This document shows positions 5,921 through 19,749 of a DNA stretch of 44,226 nucleotides, piece by piece. The stretch's first letter is position 1, and every line of letters begins with the position of its first letter. The stretch is from a virus. The position numbers were made by a program, and so were the translations under genes. The notes beneath the pieces were generated by a model that was not told where the DNA came from, did no database searches, and saw only the letters and a list, made by a program, of their open reading frames with translations. The DNA lies in the UHGV virus genome UHGV-0346409. One strand, 5' to 3'.

Positions 5921-6039
5921 CGTATTTTTAAAAAATAATTTGTAGTTAGGGGCAAAAAAATATTCACTGTGTAAAGGTGTTTTTGTGTTAGGGGGAAAGT
6001 TGCATGCCAGCAGCGGCTGGCCTGAAAATTTGAACTGAA

Positions 6040-6453
6040 CTATTTTGTCTGGTTTTTGGCTTCAAGTAGTTCTTTTAGCAGTAGATCGAAGTGCTCTCTT
6101 TTTTCTTTTAGCTCATTGATTAATTTATTTTTTTCGCTCTCAGGCAGTCCTCTGAATAGTTGCAGTAGAGCCTGTTCTTGCGGGGTTAGTTCTTGATTGT
6201 AATTACCCGGGTGTAGCGTGGATTCATCCAAATATTCCCCTTCATTCATGAAGAAAAAATGAACAGGGTATCCGGTCACTTTTGCTAGCTTGTCTAATTT
6301 ATCTTTTCTTGGAGTTACCCCATTACACCATGCCTGAACTGATTGAGCCGTAACCCCAATATGGCGAGCTAACTCAGATTGAGACCAGCCTAAGTCTTTT
6401 AGAATCCGTTGTAGTCGGCTAGCAAAAGCCATGTTTTTCGTTTTTGTGTTCAT
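6040..6453 (-). CDS. cI-like HTH_XRE prophage repressor, short form without S24/LexA-type peptidase domain
   Basis: HTH segment SQSELARHIGVTAQSVQAWCNG. Divergent from the cro-like gene. The ORF track begins at a TTG (6468); I prefer the ATG at 6453. The C-terminus is a short helical tail. Confidence 0.8.
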   Translation of the reverse strand: MNTKTKNMAFASRLQRILKDLGWSQSELARHIGVTAQSVQAWCNGVTPRKDKLDKLAKVTGYPVHFFFMNEGEYLDESTLHPGNYNQELTPQEQALLQLFRGLPESEKNKLINELKEKREHFDLLLKELLEAKNQTK

Positions 6454-11117: not shown

Positions 11118-11339
11118 ATGTTTGGCGATAACCTGGAGTTACCACGGAACGGGCGGATAGTGCTCTATATTTCAGATTACAAAGTAACCCGGGCTGAGGT
11201 GTTGGAACCGGAAAAACATTTGGTCACGTTACCGGACATTATTGAGTTGTATAAGCGGGTCGGATATGTGGACTTGCATCGCGATGATGTTCCCGTTGAG
11301 TGTATGGAATGTGAACACCGGAGGTTTGAAGTTGATTGA
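11118..11339 (+). CDS. Hypothetical protein
   Basis: 73-aa ORF with a GGAGGG RBS. Confidence 0.5.
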   Translation: MFGDNLELPRNGRIVLYISDYKVTRAEVLEPEKHLVTLPDIIELYKRVGYVDLHRDDVPVECMECEHRRFEVD

Positions 11340-11412: not shown

Positions 11413-11431
11413 ATATCTAAAAGGCGACAAC

Positions 11432-11451
11432 GACGCGCCAGCGTCTTTTTT
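11432..11451 (+). terminator. Intrinsic terminator closing the replication/nin operon
   Basis: GACGC-GCCA-GCGTC followed by TTTTTT. Confidence 0.65.
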
Positions 11452-11611
11452 ATTGTCGTGCGCACAGCCACATCCGCGATTTATGGTGGGGCGTGTAGGG
11501 GAGTCGAAAGGCTCGCCGGGTCCTTTTAGCCGGTAGTGCAAACCCTGCATGTCTCACCACCCAAAGATTTGCACCTGAGGGGGGTGATTATCCGACTAAA
11601 AGGAAATCGCT

Positions 11612-12406
11612 ATGACAACTCAAGTATCCGCAGCAGCCATCTCCCCGATTATCCACAACCAACTTCCCGTCCTCACCACCGAATTACTCGCGAATCTCTA
11701 TGGCACAGAGCCGGATTACATTCGTAAAAACCATAACCGGAACTCAGAGCGATTCGTGGTCGGGAAGCATTACTTTTTGCTCGAAGGTGAGGAGTTGCGC
11801 GAATTTAAGCACAGCATGTCTTTAAGACCTCCTGTGAAAATCGCCAGAAATGTCCGCTCTCTCATCCTCTGGACAGAACGCGGCGCAGCTCGCCATGCCA
11901 AAATGCTGGAAACAGAACAGGCCTGGGAAGTTTTCGAAAAGCTGGAAGATTGTTATTTTAGCCAGCGTCCAGAGAGGCGGAGTACAACCACCGATGACCG
12001 CACTCCCTTACGTGATGCCGTTAATATGCTGGTCGGTAAGAAAGGCATGATGTATCCCGATGCCTACACCATGATTCACCAACGTTTCGCCGTCTCTCAC
12101 ATAGAACAACTGTCACAGACGCAAATGTTAGAGGCGATTGAATACATCCACTGCCTGCTACTCGATGAAAATCAGCCAACCATTCCAGATTTTTCTTTTA
12201 TCACCACTATCAAAAATGGAAAAGTGACCAGGATGCGCCATGTTGCCAAAGGCGAACATCTGATGACGTTTGACGCTTTCAAAGAGATCGCTGAGCGGGC
12301 AGGGTATCTGGTGATCCACAGCGACAACCTGCGAAGTATGACGCTGGATAAATTGATGGTAATGGGGAAAAAGTCGGTTGTATCCGTTGCTGATTCAGCA
12401 TTTTGA
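11612..12406 (+). CDS. ORF6N-domain protein, antirepressor-like regulator
   Basis: The N-terminal segment LPVLTTELLANLYGTEPDYIRKNHNRNSERFVVGKHYFLLEGEEL fits the ORF6N pattern. RBS is AAGGAAA. Confidence 0.65.
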   Translation: MTTQVSAAAISPIIHNQLPVLTTELLANLYGTEPDYIRKNHNRNSERFVVGKHYFLLEGEELREFKHSMSLRPPVKIARNVRSLILWTERGAARHAKMLETEQAWEVFEKLEDCYFSQRPERRSTTTDDRTPLRDAVNMLVGKKGMMYPDAYTMIHQRFAVSHIEQLSQTQMLEAIEYIHCLLLDENQPTIPDFSFITTIKNGKVTRMRHVAKGEHLMTFDAFKEIAERAGYLVIHSDNLRSMTLDKLMVMGKKSVVSVADSAF

Positions 12407-16035: not shown

Positions 16036-16641
16036 TTACTTGCGTTTAAAAAGGTATTTTGTCACGACCAGCACGAGGCCGAATACCTCTGTCAAAGTAC
16101 CGCCCATGTACAACTGTAGTGTTAAATCCTCAAATTCCAGCTTACCTGCGCCGTCGGCAATAAATACACCATTCATTATCAGAAGTTGGCAAGCAAGGAT
16201 AATCAGGAACCATTTCCCGTATCGTTTTTTTAGAGCGATTTCTGCTTCAAAATCTTTGTTGTTGAGTTGTTTGCGCTCATGCTCGGTATCAAGTGAATTC
16301 ACCTGTTTCACAGATGTGAACTCGGTCAAGATTTTACTCTCAGTACGGGTGACTTGTTGAGAGGGTGTAACAGTTGGAATTCTTTTGCTAGACGCAGCTA
16401 CAGCCATTTTGCGAGCTTCGGCAGCTCTTTTTCTGGCTATTCCGCGAATACGGACAGCCGTTTTTTTGGGGGCGTGCGAAACCTTTGGCTGAGGTGAAGT
16501 TTCGTCAGGAGACTGAACCGGGGTTTCATCGTCCCCCGGCTCAACCTCTTCTGCTAACTGACGGTGTAGGTTGAGGGAATCCTTCAGTCGGCGTGCAACT
16601 TCCTGTTTGAAACGGCTGTTAAAATCGTCATCCGATGGCAT
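16036..16641 (-). CDS. Membrane protein: charged, low-complexity N-terminal region plus two C-terminal TM helices
   Basis: 201 aa. The hydrophobic segments are WFLIILACQLLIMNGVFIA and TLTEVFGLVLVVTKYLF. It sits 9 nt downstream of the ImmA/IrrE gene. Confidence 0.7.
   Translation of the reverse strand: MPSDDDFNSRFKQEVARRLKDSLNLHRQLAEEVEPGDDETPVQSPDETSPQPKVSHAPKKTAVRIRGIARKRAAEARKMAVAASSKRIPTVTPSQQVTRTESKILTEFTSVKQVNSLDTEHERKQLNNKDFEAEIALKKRYGKWFLIILACQLLIMNGVFIADGAGKLEFEDLTLQLYMGGTLTEVFGLVLVVTKYLFKRK
16037..16117. repeat. Intact partner of the repeat at 12436..12515 (3' end of the 2-TM gene)
   Basis: Aligned by eye; roughly 93 percent identity by my count. Confidence 0.8.
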
Positions 16642-16650
16642 TCTAAAGCG

Positions 16651-17139
16651 TTACCCCAACCTCAAGTTCTTTAAACGATAAGTCATCGCATCGTCAGATA
16701 CGCCAAAATAATGCGCCATTATATAACTTGGTTGGCCGTCAGCGTGCAGTTTTCTGACCTCATCAACCGGCATCAGAAGTTCTGCTGCGAACTTGTTCGC
16801 AAAAATTTCATCAGGATGCGTTCCGGCGCTTGCGGTTTCGCCACGTAAATCAACGTACTCATATTCATCACTATGCGATGCTTGCCGGGCGATGTAATGC
16901 CCCAACTCATGCCCACATGAAAAACGTTGACGAACTTTGTTGTCATCACTGTTTAGAAAGATCGCTGGATCTTGATCTTTTTGTTTAATCAGTGCGCCAG
17001 AAACTTTCCCAGGAAGATCGGTAATAAAAACATCTAATCCCATGTCGTGAGCAATTTTCGCTGGATCAACAGGGAAACCACGCCCGCACCAGAACGTGTC
17101 CAGCACTCGCCGGGCGTGCTCTCTTGGGTTGGTAGCCAT
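16651..17139 (-). CDS. ImmA/IrrE-family (DUF955, M78-like) zinc metallopeptidase, stand-alone without HTH
   Basis: HELGH motif in SCGHELGHYIARQ with a downstream ...FANKFAAELLMP. GGAGGAG RBS. Confidence 0.8.
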   Translation of the reverse strand: MATNPREHARRVLDTFWCGRGFPVDPAKIAHDMGLDVFITDLPGKVSGALIKQKDQDPAIFLNSDDNKVRQRFSCGHELGHYIARQASHSDEYEYVDLRGETASAGTHPDEIFANKFAAELLMPVDEVRKLHADGQPSYIMAHYFGVSDDAMTYRLKNLRLG

Positions 17140-17237: not shown

Positions 17238-17572
17238 GATATTAACTGTTAGTAGTAAAGTCTTCCAGATAAATCACTTTAAAATCTTGTGAATTGCTTG
17301 CTTTTTACGCTGCATTGTGGATGGCTCAATGTTTCCAGTAAAAACATACATGATAATCATGACATTAGTGGTTTTTTAAGCGTCCATATGTTTCTTAAAA
17401 AAATGGATGCCACAAGAGGCCAGATGAGAACGGAAAGGGAAGGCTATTACATGTGTGATTTATTACATCTGTAAAAAAATACAGATCTAACTTGATCTTT
17501 TCATTGAAGTTTTTCTTGGTCCTGGATAGGATCTGGAGGTTGCGAAGTTTTTAGAGTCGCATCAAAGGGAAA

Positions 17573-17598
17573 GCCCTGACAGCGCCAACTGTCAGGGC
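17573..17598. repeat. Strong 10-bp hairpin GCCCTGACAG-CGCCAA-CTGTCAGGGC
   Basis: Read directly. The minus-strand reading is followed by TTTCCCTTTG (a weak U tract). Confidence 0.5.
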
Positions 17599-17616
17599 CA
17601 TACAAAAACATCGGTT

Positions 17617-17706: not shown

Positions 17707-17985
17707 ATGAAACACATCTGTAAAAAGTCACATCGTCACGACAGTATGTTTGATGTTCTTTCTGCAAATCAGGGTAACGTTGGGCGGCACAAGTGTTGTG
17801 GATGTGCCTATGATAAAGGTATGTGGCATGCATTAATCGGCGTTCCGCGTGCGGTTGATGACTCTGTTTTAGGTGATTTACCCGAAAGCCAGGCTGGGCA
17901 TGTCCGTCATAAAGATGCTTTTGAAGCATATAATATGGGCTATGACCATGGGATGCATAAAAAAGCCTACGGTATGGCCTCATAA
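17707..17985 (+). CDS. Hypothetical Cys/His-rich small protein
   Basis: 92-aa ORF (HKCCGCAYDKG...) followed by a strong terminator. Weak RBS and an uncertain start (alternative MFDVL). The antisense 130-aa ORF looks spurious. Confidence 0.45.
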   Translation: MKHICKKSHRHDSMFDVLSANQGNVGRHKCCGCAYDKGMWHALIGVPRAVDDSVLGDLPESQAGHVRHKDAFEAYNMGYDHGMHKKAYGMAS

Positions 17986-18745: not shown

Positions 18746-18838
18746 TGACCATAAACGGTTTAATCCCCTATAAAACCGTTTAATAAAATTCACGACGTGA
18801 ATATAATTGTTCATTATTCCCTCATTGTATTTGGCGTT

Positions 18839-18876
18839 ATGACAAATGCCATAAAATACTGTATAAATGTACAGGT
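18839..18876 (+). promoter_or_regulatory. SOS-type promoter: ATGACA-17-TATAAA overlapped by the LexA box TACTGTATAAATGTACAGGT (18857..18876)
   Basis: CTG-N10-CAG with an AT-rich core, close to the consensus TACTGTATATATATACAGTA. It overlaps the -10 as in classical SOS genes. Confidence 0.75.
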
Positions 18877-18896
18877 AATGGCGTTAGGGGGAAGAC

Positions 18897-19076
18897 ATGA
18901 ATATTCAAGAATCTATAGGCGAACTACCGGAAACATGCCGGGCTGTTATCAAGCGTAAGGACGGACACATCGTTGGTGTGCGTGTTCTGACCGATGATGA
19001 ACGGATTGCCAGCCTGATGGCGTTTCTCGAGTTGGCAGAAATAGCTGGATATACTATTACACCCCCTGATGCGTAA
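18897..19076 (+). CDS. 59-aa ORF under the LexA box (candidate small antirepressor); below the ORF-track length cut-off
   Basis: GGGGGAAG RBS. Translation MNIQESIGELPETCRAVIKRKDGHIVGVRVLTDDERIASLMAFLELAEIAGYTITPPDA. The minus-strand ORFs listed here are shadow frames. Confidence 0.55.
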   Translation: MNIQESIGELPETCRAVIKRKDGHIVGVRVLTDDERIASLMAFLELAEIAGYTITPPDA

Positions 19077-19152
19077 AACACGGTATAATGTCGGTGCTGG
19101 ATTGAACACCCAGCACCACTTCTGAACACTGCCGCGCCACCTGGAGTTAACC

Positions 19153-19749
19153 ATGGCGCAGCATTCATTTATCAGGGTATCCGGCGGTTCGCTAATACCC
19201 GCGACACCAGACACGCAACGCTGGTTGACTGAACGAGTCAAACCAGGTGCTGTTGTGTATGCAGATTTCAAACAGGCGCGTAATCCCGCGTTTCATCGTA
19301 AATTTTTCTCACTTCTCAACCTGGGCTTTGATTACTGGCATCCCTCCGGAGGGGCTATTTCTCCTGCGGAGCGCGAACTGGTTCACGGATACGTTAAGTT
19401 ACTGGCGTATTACGGTGGGCATGGTGATGTCATGGCTGAGCTGGCTGATCAGTATCTTCTCGATGAGTCGGAAAAGCGCGCGGGGAATATCAGTGCGGTG
19501 AAGTCGTTCGAGGCGTTTCGCGCCTGGGCGACTATGGAATCTGGATTTTATGACGTTCATCAGATGCCAGATGGTAGTTTGATGCGTGTACCTCGTTCAA
19601 TCTCGTTTGCTGCGATGGACGATCTTGAGTTCGGTCAACTGTATTCAGCCGTTTTAGATGTGCTGTGGAATTATATTTTGTTCCGCACGTTTGCCTCTCA
19701 GGAGGCCGCTGAAAATGCTGCCGCGCAGCTGTTGGATTACACATCATGA
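19153..19749 (+). CDS. DUF1367 (YbcN-like) protein
   Basis: 198 aa. SFIRV...FHRKFFSLLNLGFDYW resembles the DLP12 YbcN family. It sits in the nin-region position upstream of YbcO/Q. Confidence 0.7.
   Translation: MAQHSFIRVSGGSLIPATPDTQRWLTERVKPGAVVYADFKQARNPAFHRKFFSLLNLGFDYWHPSGGAISPAERELVHGYVKLLAYYGGHGDVMAELADQYLLDESEKRAGNISAVKSFEAFRAWATMESGFYDVHQMPDGSLMRVPRSISFAAMDDLEFGQLYSAVLDVLWNYILFRTFASQEAAENAAAQLLDYTS

What the first reader, a model, noticed from the sequence alone, without database searches (positions are those of the whole stretch)
18839..19076. Near-consensus LexA box drives an unlisted 59-aa ORF; the repressor has no autocleavage domain
TACTGTATAAATGTACAGGT (18857..18876) is a near-consensus SOS box. 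It overlaps the -10 of a good promoter (ATGACA-17-TATAAA). Twenty nucleotides downstream, a GGGGGAAG RBS precedes a 59-aa ORF (18897..19076) that falls just below the ORF-track cut-off. The track lists only antisense shadow ORFs here.

The immunity repressor (6040..6453) is about 137 aa: an HTH plus a short helical tail, with no S24 Ser/Lys peptidase domain. RecA-stimulated self-cleavage is therefore unlikely.

This matches the logic known for coliphage 186 Tum and the Salmonella Gifsy antirepressors, where LexA controls a small antirepressor that inactivates a non-cleavable repressor. I do not recognise the 59-aa sequence, so it may be a new antirepressor family. The separate ORF6N protein (11612..12406) would then be a second, differently regulated antirepressor-like factor.
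Basis: partly seen in the sequence, partly recalled or inferred. Interest (0 to 1): 0.7.

Follow-up and report, generated by a model that had tools for sequence, protein, structure and literature searches.

The report
SOS-controlled GfoA/Rem-type prophage antirepressor
A strong LexA (DNA-damage) operator in an E. coli prophage controls a 59-residue protein related to the proven Gifsy-1 (GfoA) and Qin (Rem) antirepressors, so the prophage most likely wakes up through the known LexA-antirepressor route and not through a new protein family.

Summary
TACTGTATAAATGTACAGGT (18857..18876) scores 21.8 bits on an E. coli LexA matrix, above the median of known operators. It overlaps the -10 of ATGACA-17-TATAAA and lies 20 nt before a 59-aa ORF under purifying selection (dN/dS about 0.16).

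The box is kept in diverged E. coli alleles. It is also present upstream of all 74 distant family members examined in viral contigs.

The ORF lies in the Gifsy antirepressor slot: LexA box, small ORF, then the irsA/DUF1367 homologue. The prophage repressor is a short HTH protein, 33% identical to Gifsy-2 GtgR and 31% to DicA, with no S24 peptidase domain.

The "new family" suggestion is not supported. The protein is 33% identical to GfoA (BLASTP E 6e-10) and belongs to PHROG 340 together with GfoA and Rem. RefSeq already annotates it as a hypothetical protein.

Two things were found beyond the finding. The same 45-residue module forms the C-terminus of the window's ORF6N protein and an unannotated 73-aa ORF (11118..11339). 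Elsewhere it is fused to Rha, Bro-N, KilA-N and P22-Ant N-terminal domains.

Verdict: a new member of a known kind. LexA binding and repressor binding remain untested.

The parts
18752..18782 (+). A/U-rich hairpin (AAACGGTTT..AAACCGTTT) directly after the upstream 225-aa ORF. It is terminator-like and would insulate the SOS promoter from read-through.
   Evidence: RNA fold gives -10.2 kcal/mol, z = -2.5. Gifsy LexA boxes are likewise preceded by terminator-like palindromes (PMC3121763; sequence).
18839..18867 (+). Sigma-70-type promoter: -35 ATGACA (18839..18844), 17-nt spacer, -10 TATAAA (18862..18867).
   Evidence: Sequence. The -35 is invariant in seven aligned alleles and the -10 is TATAAA or TATATA. 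Distant relatives have TTTGCAC-17-TATATA abutting the LexA box.
18857..18876 (.). LexA operator (SOS box) TACTGTATAAATGTACAGGT, overlapping the -10.
   Evidence: Scores 21.8 bits against a training median of 20.1, and is the best site in the window by 8.7 bits. Conserved across alleles with diverged flanks. An equivalent box is present in 74 of 74 distant loci.
18886..18891 (+). Shine-Dalgarno AGGGGG, 5 nt before the ATG.
   Evidence: Sequence. GGGGGAA is conserved in all alleles.
18897..19076 (+). 59-aa GfoA/Rem-family (PHROG 340) antirepressor candidate.
   Evidence: PHROG 340 at E 1.6e-20. BLASTP to GfoA-type protein: 33% identity over 51 aa, E 6e-10. hhalign of the family profile to GfoA 96.5% and to Rem 92.6%. 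dN/dS 0.15-0.17. AlphaFold2 pLDDT 90: short helix, beta-hairpin, helix.
19093..19117 (+). GC-rich hairpin GGTGCTGG..CCAGCACC between the 59-aa ORF and DUF1367. It has no U-tract, so it is at most a partial terminator or an RNA-processing element.
   Evidence: Fold. Not called as a terminator by the scan. The stem is kept through a G-U change in other alleles. In phage 186 a partial terminator, t95a, follows tum.
19153..19749 (+). DUF1367 protein, homologue of the Gifsy irsA-homologue gene. Probable downstream gene of the same SOS-controlled unit.
   Evidence: Pfam DUF1367 at E 1e-78. 56% identical (E 4e-83) to Gifsy-2 STM1020, the gene after gftA. Follows the small ORF in 72 of 75 viral loci.
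6040..6432 (-). Immunity repressor, short GtgR/DicA type (130 aa), with no self-cleavage domain. Proposed target of the antirepressor.
   Evidence: HTH_3 only, no Peptidase_S24. 33% identical to GtgR, E 6e-23. 31% identical to DicA, E 1e-15. Shares the C-terminal LPESEK...LL..K motif. Flanked by Cro-like and YdaT genes.
12206..12331 (+). C-terminal PHROG-340 module of the ORF6N antirepressor-like protein (gene 11612..12406).
   Evidence: PHROG 340 at E 3e-12 on residues 199-240. BLASTP to the 59-aa protein: 34% identity, E 9e-6. Family HMM E 2e-16.
11118..11339 (+). Unannotated 73-aa paralogue of the same family, in the early rightward gene block, with no LexA box.
   Evidence: PHROG 340 at E 3.6e-21. 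Family HMM E 1e-12. Strong RBS. No feature is annotated under it in most E. coli genomes.

Best explanation
The window is an E. coli prophage next to the tRNA-Ser gene beside mtfA. Its lysogeny is held by a short, non-cleavable GtgR/DicA-type HTH repressor (6040..6432, minus strand).

About 12.5 kb away, just upstream of the DUF1367-YbcO-Q genes, a sigma-70 promoter has its -10 buried in a strong LexA operator (18857..18876).

In undamaged cells host LexA would occupy this operator and keep the 59-aa gene silent. DNA damage activates RecA, LexA cleaves itself, and the promoter fires. The 59-aa GfoA/Rem-family protein would then accumulate and bind the prophage repressor. By analogy with GfoA-GfoR this would be an A2B2 complex. 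The repressor would leave its operators and the early lytic operons would switch on.

What the sequence and comparisons show:
- the operator, the promoter and the ORF;
- their conservation;
- membership of the GfoA/Rem family;
- the synteny;
- the repressor type.

What is inferred: LexA occupancy, SOS inducibility, physical binding to this particular repressor, and the sufficiency or necessity of the 59-aa protein for induction.

Two further copies of the same module sit in the repressor-controlled early region: the 73-aa ORF at 11118..11339 and the C-terminus of the ORF6N protein. They would be made only after derepression. They may reinforce the switch or act on heteroimmune prophages, as FsoA of Fels-1 does. 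This last step is speculative.
For: 1. Operator strength. The site scores 21.8 bits, above the median of known E. coli LexA sites and far above anything else in the window. The 95th percentile of the best score in shuffles is 16.4.

2. Conservation. The box and the -35 are kept in 75-76% identical alleles while the flanks diverge. All 74 IMG/VR loci that encode family members only about 40% identical to this protein have an 18-27 bit LexA box. These loci give 52 distinct upstream sequences. The box starts 34-64 nt before the start codon in most loci and up to 190 nt in a few. It is the top-scoring site in every 8-kb locus, and a TTTGCAC-17-TATATA promoter abuts it.

3. Synteny with the experimentally defined Gifsy unit. 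Gifsy-2 has terminators, then LexA box, dinI, gftA and a DUF1367 'irsA homologue'. The window has a hairpin, then LexA box, the 59-aa ORF and a DUF1367 gene 56% identical to the Gifsy one (PMC3121763).

4. Family membership. The UUG-initiated ORF in the Gifsy dinI-X-irsA slot matches the published gfoA cloning primer pp866 exactly and most of pp867. That ORF, K-12 Rem and the 59-aa ORF all hit PHROG 340 at E about 1e-20. Direct BLASTP of the 59-aa protein against the GfoA type gives E 6e-10, and hhalign gives 96.5%. GfoA binds and inactivates GfoR/GfhR (PMC3121763). Rem derepresses the DicA-controlled dicBp promoter 165-fold (PMC10448788).

5. Target type. The window repressor is a full-length homologue of GtgR and DicA with no S24 domain. 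In the viral contigs, 59 of the 61 repressor homologues found 6-9 kb upstream of family members are 113-154 aa proteins of this type.

6. Existing annotation. A GenBank record (MN652886) already annotates the same gene order as dicA ... rem 'prophage antirepressor' - irsA (DUF1367) - ybcO - Q.

7. Domain fusions. The module is fused to five different antirepressor-type N-terminal domains: ORF6N, Rha, Bro-N, P22_AR_N and KilA-N.

8. Evolutionary rate. The small protein evolves about three times faster than its DUF1367 neighbour, with mean pairwise distances of 0.45 and 0.16.
Against: There is no experimental evidence for this locus.

The 59-aa protein is shorter than GfoA and Rem (82-86 aa). 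It lacks their first beta-hairpin, so its activity could differ.

There is no dinI gene, unlike the Gifsy operon.

Antirepressor subtype and repressor subtype co-vary only weakly (Mantel r = 0.13, against r = 0.64 with the linked DUF1367 gene). So there is no co-evolution signal for a specific pair. This is compatible with the broad specificity reported for GfoA/GfhA, but it is not positive evidence.

The -10 (TATAAA) lacks the conserved final T.

The LexA matrix was built from operator sequences I recalled from memory.

No solved or predicted structure gives an independent functional clue.

The prophage also carries an ImmA/IrrE-type peptidase that could in principle attack an HTH repressor.
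Confidence: 0.72

Rival explanations
1. The gene is LexA-controlled and belongs to the antirepressor family, but its main target is not this prophage's own repressor. It would act in trans on repressors of co-resident prophages. The resident prophage would then be induced by another route, or be non-inducible or defective.
For: Gifsy and Fels-1 antirepressors act on non-cognate repressors, and GftA is inactive on its own context in some strains (PMC3121763). Antirepressor and repressor subtypes are almost freely re-assorted among viral contigs. The prophage holds three paralogues of the module.
Against: Short DicA/GtgR-type repressors accompany the module in 59 of 61 cases, including this window. 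The simplest target is therefore the resident repressor. All repressor classes share the same conserved C-terminal motif, which could be the common docking surface.
Confidence: 0.12
2. The SOS promoter exists mainly to express the downstream DUF1367 gene and possibly YbcO and Q. The DUF1367 family is labelled NinB/Orf-like recombination mediator in PHROG 319. On this reading the 59-aa ORF is an accessory first cistron with some other SOS-related role, for example a RecA or LexA modulator like DinI.
For: DUF1367 follows the small ORF in 72 of 75 loci and is much better conserved. The hairpin between the two genes has no U-tract, so read-through is likely. In Gifsy phages dinI and the irsA homologue share the LexA-controlled unit.
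Against: Non-polar deletions of dinI or the irsA homologue had no effect on Gifsy induction, whereas the small ORF alone was sufficient (PMC3121763). The 59-aa protein is homologous to GfoA and Rem, not to DinI. rem-type genes precede DUF1367 without any LexA box, so the box tracks the small gene's branch and not DUF1367.
Confidence: 0.08
3. Induction runs through the ImmA/IrrE-type metallopeptidase (16651..17139, minus strand), which would cleave the HTH repressor as ImmA cleaves ImmR in ICEBs1. The LexA-controlled ORF would be irrelevant to the switch.
For: Peptidase_M78 hit at E 8e-18. A weak LexA-like site (13.1 bits) lies in the intergenic region to its right.
Against: The peptidase cassette lies 10 kb from the repressor, among variable cargo. 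It is absent from closely related prophages that keep the LexA box, small ORF and DUF1367 module (L004-L007). The weak site is within the range of shuffled sequence (median best score 11.9).
Confidence: 0.05
4. The LexA-box match is fortuitous and the promoter is not SOS-regulated.
For: One of 200 shuffles of the window reached a comparable score (maximum 22.3). The -10 is imperfect.
Against: The box is conserved across diverged alleles and present in 74 of 74 distant family loci at the same position relative to promoter and start codon. Gifsy-2 and phage 186 have the same architecture.
Confidence: 0.02

Closest known systems
GfoA / GfhA, the LexA-controlled antirepressors of Salmonella Gifsy-1 and Gifsy-3 (Lemire, Figueroa-Bossi and Bossi 2011, PMC3121763)
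   Same: Same protein family: PHROG 340, 33% identity over 51 residues at E 6e-10, and a shared ...GY.(I/V)TPP C-terminus. Same kind of control: a LexA box overlapping the -10, outside the immunity region and preceded by a hairpin. Same slot, immediately upstream of the irsA/DUF1367 homologue. Same class of short, S24-less repressor.
   Different: It is 59 aa instead of about 82 aa. It lacks the N-terminal first beta-hairpin and has a short N-terminal helix instead. It is the first cistron after the LexA box, with no dinI gene before it. It starts with ATG instead of UUG. The host is an E. coli myovirus-tailed lambdoid hybrid prophage. Its function is untested.
Rem, antirepressor of DicA in the E. 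coli K-12 Qin prophage (Ragunathan and Vanderpool 2023, PMC10448788)
   Same: Same PHROG 340 family (Rem E 4.4e-21; hhalign to the family profile 92.6%). Same position upstream of the Q-proximal genes. In 'phage Rac' MN652886 the order is rem - irsA(DUF1367) - ybcO - Q, exactly as in the window. The target repressor DicA is 31% identical to the window's repressor.
   Different: rem-type genes are 83-86 aa and have no LexA box, and their inducing signal is unknown. The window's gene belongs to the branch that always carries a LexA box.
GftA of Gifsy-2 and FsoA of Fels-1
   Same: Small antirepressors of GtgR-type repressors. GftA occupies the same slot between the LexA box/dinI and the DUF1367 gene.
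   Different: GftA is in a different PHROG (4847). Its similarity to the 59-aa family is only marginal (hhalign 57% for the single sequence, 29% profile-profile; no BLASTP hit).
Tum of coliphage 186 and AntC of N15
   Same: Same regulatory logic: LexA represses an antirepressor that inactivates a non-cleavable repressor. The p95 promoter of 186 has the LexA box over the -10, and a partial terminator follows tum.
   Different: No sequence relationship to Tum (hhalign 0.3%). Tum is 146 aa with a DinI-like C-terminal half, and the 186 CI repressor is a different protein. AntC was not tested.
Large Ant/Bro/Rha/KilA/ORF6N 'antirepressor' proteins (for example P22 Ant)
   Same: A subset of these proteins ends in the same 45-residue module as the 59-aa protein, including this window's ORF6N protein.
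   Different: The 59-aa protein has none of their N-terminal domains. P22 Ant itself was not shown to contain the module. Those proteins are generally not LexA-controlled.

Membership tests
GfoA/Rem small antirepressors (PHROG 340) | Sequence homology to an experimentally characterised member | tested here: met
   PHROG 340 at E 1.6e-20 for the 59-aa ORF, 7.6e-21 for the GfoA-type ORF and 4.4e-21 for Rem. BLASTP to GfoA type E 6e-10. hhalign 96.5% and 92.6%. The GfoA-type ORF was identified through the published cloning primers.
GfoA/Rem small antirepressors (PHROG 340) | Small stand-alone protein (about 60-90 aa) | tested here: met
   59 aa. Most of the 89 family representatives are 55-70 aa. 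It is shorter than GfoA and Rem by one beta-hairpin.
Gifsy-type LexA-controlled antirepressor module | LexA operator overlapping the promoter of the antirepressor unit, outside the immunity region | tested here: met
   A 21.8-bit box over the -10, 12.5 kb from the repressor. Conserved in alleles and in 74 of 74 distant loci. This is sequence evidence only.
Gifsy-type LexA-controlled antirepressor module | Antirepressor gene immediately upstream of the irsA/DUF1367 homologue, in the region between the replication genes and Q | tested here: met
   DUF1367 starts 76 nt after the stop codon and is 56% identical to the Gifsy-2 gene. The same order holds in 72 of 75 loci.
Gifsy-type LexA-controlled antirepressor module | dinI homologue as first gene of the LexA-controlled operon | tested here: not met
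   No ORF lies between the box and the 59-aa gene. The 59-aa ORF has no Pfam hit, DinI included. No DinI hit in the related viral loci.
Gifsy-type LexA-controlled antirepressor module | Cognate repressor is a short GfoR/GtgR/DicA-type HTH protein without a Ser/Lys self-cleavage domain | tested here: met
   HTH_3 only, no Peptidase_S24. 33% identical to GtgR and 31% to DicA. 59 of 61 associated repressors are 113-154 aa.
Gifsy-type LexA-controlled antirepressor module | LexA binds the operator and transcription is induced by DNA damage | not testable with these tools
   Needs EMSA or ChIP and reporter assays in lexA(Ind-) versus wild type.
Gifsy-type LexA-controlled antirepressor module | The protein binds the repressor, releases it from DNA, and is sufficient to induce the prophage | not testable with these tools
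   Needs ectopic expression in a lysogen, pull-down or two-hybrid assays, and gel shifts. The covariation test gave only a weak signal (Mantel r = 0.13).
GftA (Gifsy-2) subfamily, PHROG 4847 | Sequence homology to GftA | tested here: inconclusive
   No BLASTP alignment. hhalign 57% at E 1e-4 against the single sequence and 29% against a GftA profile. GftA hits only PHROG 4847.
186 Tum | Homology to Tum (helical N-terminal half plus DinI-like C-terminal half) | tested here: not met
   hhalign probability 0.3%. No DinI-like part.
Large Ant/Bro/Rha/KilA-N/ORF6N antirepressors | N-terminal Bro-N, KilA-N, ORF6N, Rha or P22_AR_N domain | tested here: not met
   The 59-aa ORF has no Pfam domain. It corresponds only to the C-terminal module of such proteins.
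Lambda CI / LexA-type self-cleaving repressors (for the repressor at 6040..6432) | C-terminal Peptidase_S24 domain with a Ser/Lys dyad | tested here: not met
   Pfam scan at E up to 0.1 finds only HTH families. The whole 130-aa length aligns with GtgR and DicA.

The most novel reading that the evidence does not exclude
The roughly 45-residue hairpin-helix module (consensus GR.L.T.ENG.V.S.R.L..DEH.ASL..F.ELA..AGY) may be a portable warhead against the whole DicA/GtgR/GfoR class of short repressors. It might dock on their shared C-terminal LPESEK...LF.ELL..RK helix.

Phages would then deploy it in three ways:
- as a LexA-gated stand-alone protein that senses the SOS signal;
- as repressor-controlled stand-alone copies;
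- as the C-terminal effector of large Rha, Bro-N, KilA-N, ORF6N and P22-Ant-N proteins.

This window carries all three formats. That would make it a built-in circuit for self-induction plus cross-induction of heteroimmune prophages. It would also give a function to the C-termini of many 'Bro/Rha/KilA' proteins that now have none.
Probability: 0.3. Interest if true: 0.55.

Novelty: new member of a known kind. Interest (0 to 1): 0.3.

Why it matters
This prophage region is present in about 8% of complete E. coli genomes (442 of 5,426) and in E. whittamii. In RefSeq the gene that most likely couples this prophage to DNA damage is labelled only 'hypothetical protein'. Assigning it to the GfoA/Rem antirepressor family gives a testable induction mechanism for these prophages.

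It also links two separately studied proteins, GfoA and Rem, with a large set of unannotated small phage proteins that have no Pfam family. One branch of that family is consistently LexA-gated, while the Rem branch is not.

Induction through an antirepressor is in principle reversible and can act in trans. It therefore bears on how polylysogens coordinate prophage induction under DNA-damaging antibiotics.

The mechanism itself has been established since 1998-2011, so the gain is in annotation and scope, not in concept.

Tried and rejected
1. Tum homology: none.

2. GftA homology: marginal. It fell from 57% to 29% with a GftA profile, so I do not claim it.

3. Structure-based function:
- The AlphaFold2 model is confident (pLDDT 90).
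- Foldseek against PDB and BFVD gave nothing significant.
- A sequence profile search of PDB gave nothing.

4. Co-evolution of antirepressor and repressor subtypes in 51 distinct viral loci: only a weak Mantel correlation (r = 0.13). The contingency table is almost random. I therefore do not use it as support.

5. Second CTGT-N8-ACAG site at 17469..17484:
- It scores 13.1 bits, within the range of shuffles.
- Its surroundings are 99% identical in the available relatives, so conservation is uninformative.
- I left it as a passing note.

6. ImmA/IrrE peptidase as the induction route: rejected as the core mechanism, because the cassette is missing from close relatives that keep the SOS module.

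7. Searches that gave little:
- The search for related loci with the broad family alignment failed because it had no conserved stretch.
- The genome-contig scan with narrow patterns returned only one locus, in E. whittamii.
- Word-indexed homologue searches returned only close relatives.
- The exhaustive HMM search was what opened up the family.

8. Literature searches found no paper on this specific E. coli gene.

9. My crude check of the antisense reading frames was not informative and is not used.
Full report
What is there.

The window is a prophage integrated next to a tRNA-Ser gene beside mtfA in E. coli. It is 100% identical over the queried 407-bp segment (18746..19152) to strain RM10042. 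It has a lambdoid early region: integrase, a short repressor, Cro-like and YdaT genes, replication genes, and DUF1367-YbcO-Q. Its tail is P2/Mu-like and contractile.

- -35 ATGACA at 18839..18844, a 17-nt spacer, and -10 TATAAA at 18862..18867;
- LexA box TACTGTATAAATGTACAGGT at 18857..18876;
- Shine-Dalgarno AGGGGG at 18886..18891;
- a 59-codon ORF at 18897..19076.

RefSeq already annotates this ORF as hypothetical protein WP_001025459.1. It was 'unlisted' only because of the first stage's length cut-off.

Is the LexA box more than chance?

CTGT-N8-ACAG occurs twice in the 44 kb window. That is a caveat. On this matrix the site scores 21.8 bits. The median of the real operators is 20.1, and the next best site in the window scores 13.1. 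The best score in 200 shuffles has a 95th percentile of 16.4 and a maximum of 22.3.

Conservation is stronger evidence than the score. In six loci carrying the two alleles that are only 75-76% identical at the protein level, the flanks of the box are heavily substituted. The -35 and the CTGT/ACAG arms are kept, and some alleles are closer to consensus, for example TACTGTATATATATACAGTG at 27.9 bits. One locus (L005) has a 2-bp deletion inside the box.

The ORF is under purifying selection, with dN/dS of 0.15-0.17.

What the protein is.

Pfam has no family for it. It matches PHROG 340, 'unknown function', at E 1.6e-20.

An exhaustive HMM search of 1.8 billion cluster representatives found 89 relatives at E up to 0.001. 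Most are stand-alone proteins of 55-70 aa with the consensus P..GR.L.T.ENG.V.S.R.L..DEH.ASL..F.ELA..AGY. The ten longer hits I scanned carry the module near the C-terminus, and eight of them have Phage_pRha, Bro-N, P22_AR_N or KilA-N N-terminal domains. These are the classic N-terminal domains of phage 'antirepressor' proteins.

The window's own ORF6N protein (11612..12406) ends in the same module: PHROG 340 at E 3e-12 and BLASTP E 9e-6 to the 59-aa protein. A six-frame HMM scan of the window found a third copy, an unannotated 73-aa ORF at 11118..11339.

AlphaFold2 predicts a short helix, a beta-hairpin and a helix with pLDDT 90. Nothing in PDB or BFVD resembles it significantly.

Link to characterised antirepressors.

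Gifsy-2 (NC_010393) has, in order: terminators; a LexA box over the -10; dinI; gftA; and the 'irsA homologue' STM1020. STM1020 is a DUF1367 protein, 56% identical (E 4e-83) to the gene that follows the 59-aa ORF. The 59-aa ORF therefore sits in the slot that Lemire et al. defined experimentally as the antirepressor gene (PMC3121763).

GftA itself is only marginally similar. I then sampled 80 viral contigs with a Gifsy dinI. Their dinI-X-DUF1367 slot is often filled by another ORF. This ORF starts with UUG. It contains the published gfoA forward-primer sequence exactly and most of the reverse primer. I take it to be GfoA or a near-identical allele.

That protein hits PHROG 340 at E 7.6e-21. It is 33% identical to the 59-aa protein over 51 residues (BLASTP E 6e-10). 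It matches the family profile with 96.5% hhalign probability.

E. coli K-12 Rem derepresses the DicA-controlled dicBp promoter 165-fold when expressed (PMC10448788). Rem also hits PHROG 340 (E 4.4e-21) and the family profile (92.6%). GenBank record MN652886 annotates dicA ... rem 'prophage antirepressor' - irsA (DUF1367) - ybcO - Q, the same order as in the window.

The 59-aa protein is thus a compact member of the GfoA/Rem family, not a new family. It is unrelated to 186 Tum.

The target.

The repressor (6040..6432, minus strand) has only HTH-type Pfam hits and no Peptidase_S24. It aligns over its full length with Gifsy-2 GtgR (33%, E 6e-23) and with DicA (31%, E 1e-15). Both are antirepressor-controlled, non-cleaved repressors.

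In 75 viral contigs carrying family members, 61 had a repressor homologue 6-9 kb upstream. Most of the remaining 14 lacked enough upstream sequence. Of the 61, 59 are 113-154 aa proteins of this type. All share a C-terminal LPESEK..H..L..KV..F..LF.ELL..RK motif, which the window repressor also has.

Family-wide LexA control.

All 74 viral loci with usable upstream sequence have an 18-27 bit LexA box. They give 52 distinct upstream sequences, and their proteins are about 40% identical to the window's. In most loci the box starts 34-64 nt before the start codon. It is the best site in each 8-kb locus, and a TTTGCAC-17-TATATA promoter abuts it. DUF1367 follows in 72 of 75 loci and is 65-71% identical in nearly all of them, so the small gene evolves about three times faster than its neighbour.

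By contrast, rem-type genes (83-86 aa) in Qin, PPompW and 'phage Rac' have no LexA box. This fits the statement in PMC10448788 that Rem's inducing signal is unknown.

Most likely mechanism.

LexA occupies the operator over the -10 and silences the 59-aa gene. DNA damage leads to LexA self-cleavage. The antirepressor is then made, binds the short repressor and removes it from its operators, and the lytic operons switch on.

The anatomy, conservation, family membership and repressor type are shown. LexA binding, inducibility and the protein-protein interaction are inferred from homologues.

The hairpin after the ORF (19093..19117) has no U-tract. The transcript therefore probably continues into DUF1367, as in the Gifsy unit.

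The two extra copies of the module lie in the early region, have no LexA box, and would be expressed only after derepression. They might reinforce the switch or act on other prophages, as FsoA does. This is speculation.

What weakens the case.

There are no experiments on this locus. The protein lacks the first hairpin of GfoA and Rem. There is no dinI.

My co-evolution test was essentially negative. The Mantel correlation between antirepressor and repressor distances is r = 0.13, against r = 0.64 with the linked DUF1367 gene. This is compatible with the broad specificity of GfoA/GfhA, but it is not support.

An ImmA/IrrE-type peptidase cassette (16036..17139, minus strand) could in principle be an alternative route. 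It is cargo that is missing from close relatives that retain the SOS module.

Verdict.

The mechanistic reading is well supported by comparative evidence. The novelty claim is not supported. This is a new, shorter, dinI-less member of the known LexA-controlled Gifsy-type antirepressor system, in a prophage region present in about 8% of complete E. coli genomes.

The modest added value is threefold:
- GfoA, Rem and many unannotated small phage proteins fall into one family that has no Pfam entry.
- One branch of that family is consistently LexA-gated.
- The same module is the C-terminal domain of several classes of large antirepressor-like proteins, and this prophage carries three copies of it.

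Noticed in passing
window 11118..11339 (+): An unannotated 73-aa ORF with a strong RBS is a third PHROG-340 (GfoA/Rem-type) paralogue (E 3.6e-21). It has a Cys/His-rich tail (VECMECEH). A terminator-like hairpin with a T-run follows at about 11429..11455. It has no LexA box. Most RefSeq E. coli genomes that carry the region annotate nothing there.
   Followed up: partly
window 12206..12331 (+), inside the ORF6N gene 11612..12406: The ORF6N antirepressor-like protein ends in the same 45-residue module as the 59-aa protein. Elsewhere the module is fused to Phage_pRha, Bro-N, P22_AR_N and KilA-N domains, and it also occurs as tandem two-copy proteins (P0023, P0030). Pfam has no model for it.
   Followed up: partly
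window 17467..17486: A second CTGT-N8-ACAG site (ATCTGTAAAAAAATACAGAT, 13.1 bits) lies in the intergenic region between the ImmA/IrrE-like peptidase operon and a 92-aa ORF (17707..17985). Its score is within the range of shuffled sequence. The available relatives are 99% identical here, so conservation says nothing.
   Followed up: partly
window 16036..17139 (-): An ImmA/IrrE-type M78 metallopeptidase (162 aa) sits with a 201-aa partner of unknown function (PHROG 5346), far from the immunity region. In related prophages (L004-L007) the cassette is replaced by other cargo that includes a GmrSD_N protein, so it looks like an accessory or defence-type module.
   Followed up: partly
L005 about 5965..5985 (aligned to window 18857..18876): One E. 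coli allele has a 2-bp deletion inside the LexA box, giving CTGT-N6-ACAG. This should abolish LexA binding. It may be a constitutively derepressed or defective prophage, or an assembly error.
   Followed up: no
window 18850..19000: A mosaic joint lies inside the 59-aa gene. The promoter-proximal region and codons 1-33 are strongly diverged between alleles (dS 0.7-0.8). Codons 34-59 and the downstream DUF1367 region are almost identical.
   Followed up: partly
L086 8904..9125 (-), L162 2784..3003, L163 5722..5966: rem-type family members (83-86 aa; K-12 Qin, PPompW phages, 'phage Rac') have no LexA box upstream. The shorter 59-63 aa branch always has one. The unknown signal for Rem is therefore probably not LexA.
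   Followed up: partly
window 6040..6150 (-), and repressors in L087-L161: All classes of short DicA/GtgR-type repressors share a conserved C-terminal motif, LPESEK..H..L..KV..F..LF.ELL..RK. Their N-terminal HTH regions differ. The motif is a candidate common docking site for broad-specificity antirepressors.
   Followed up: no
window 17574..17601: A hairpin GCCCTGACAG-loop-CTGTCAGGGC has identical stems but a different loop in related loci. It is followed on the minus strand by a T-rich run, so it may be a terminator for leftward transcription.
   Followed up: no
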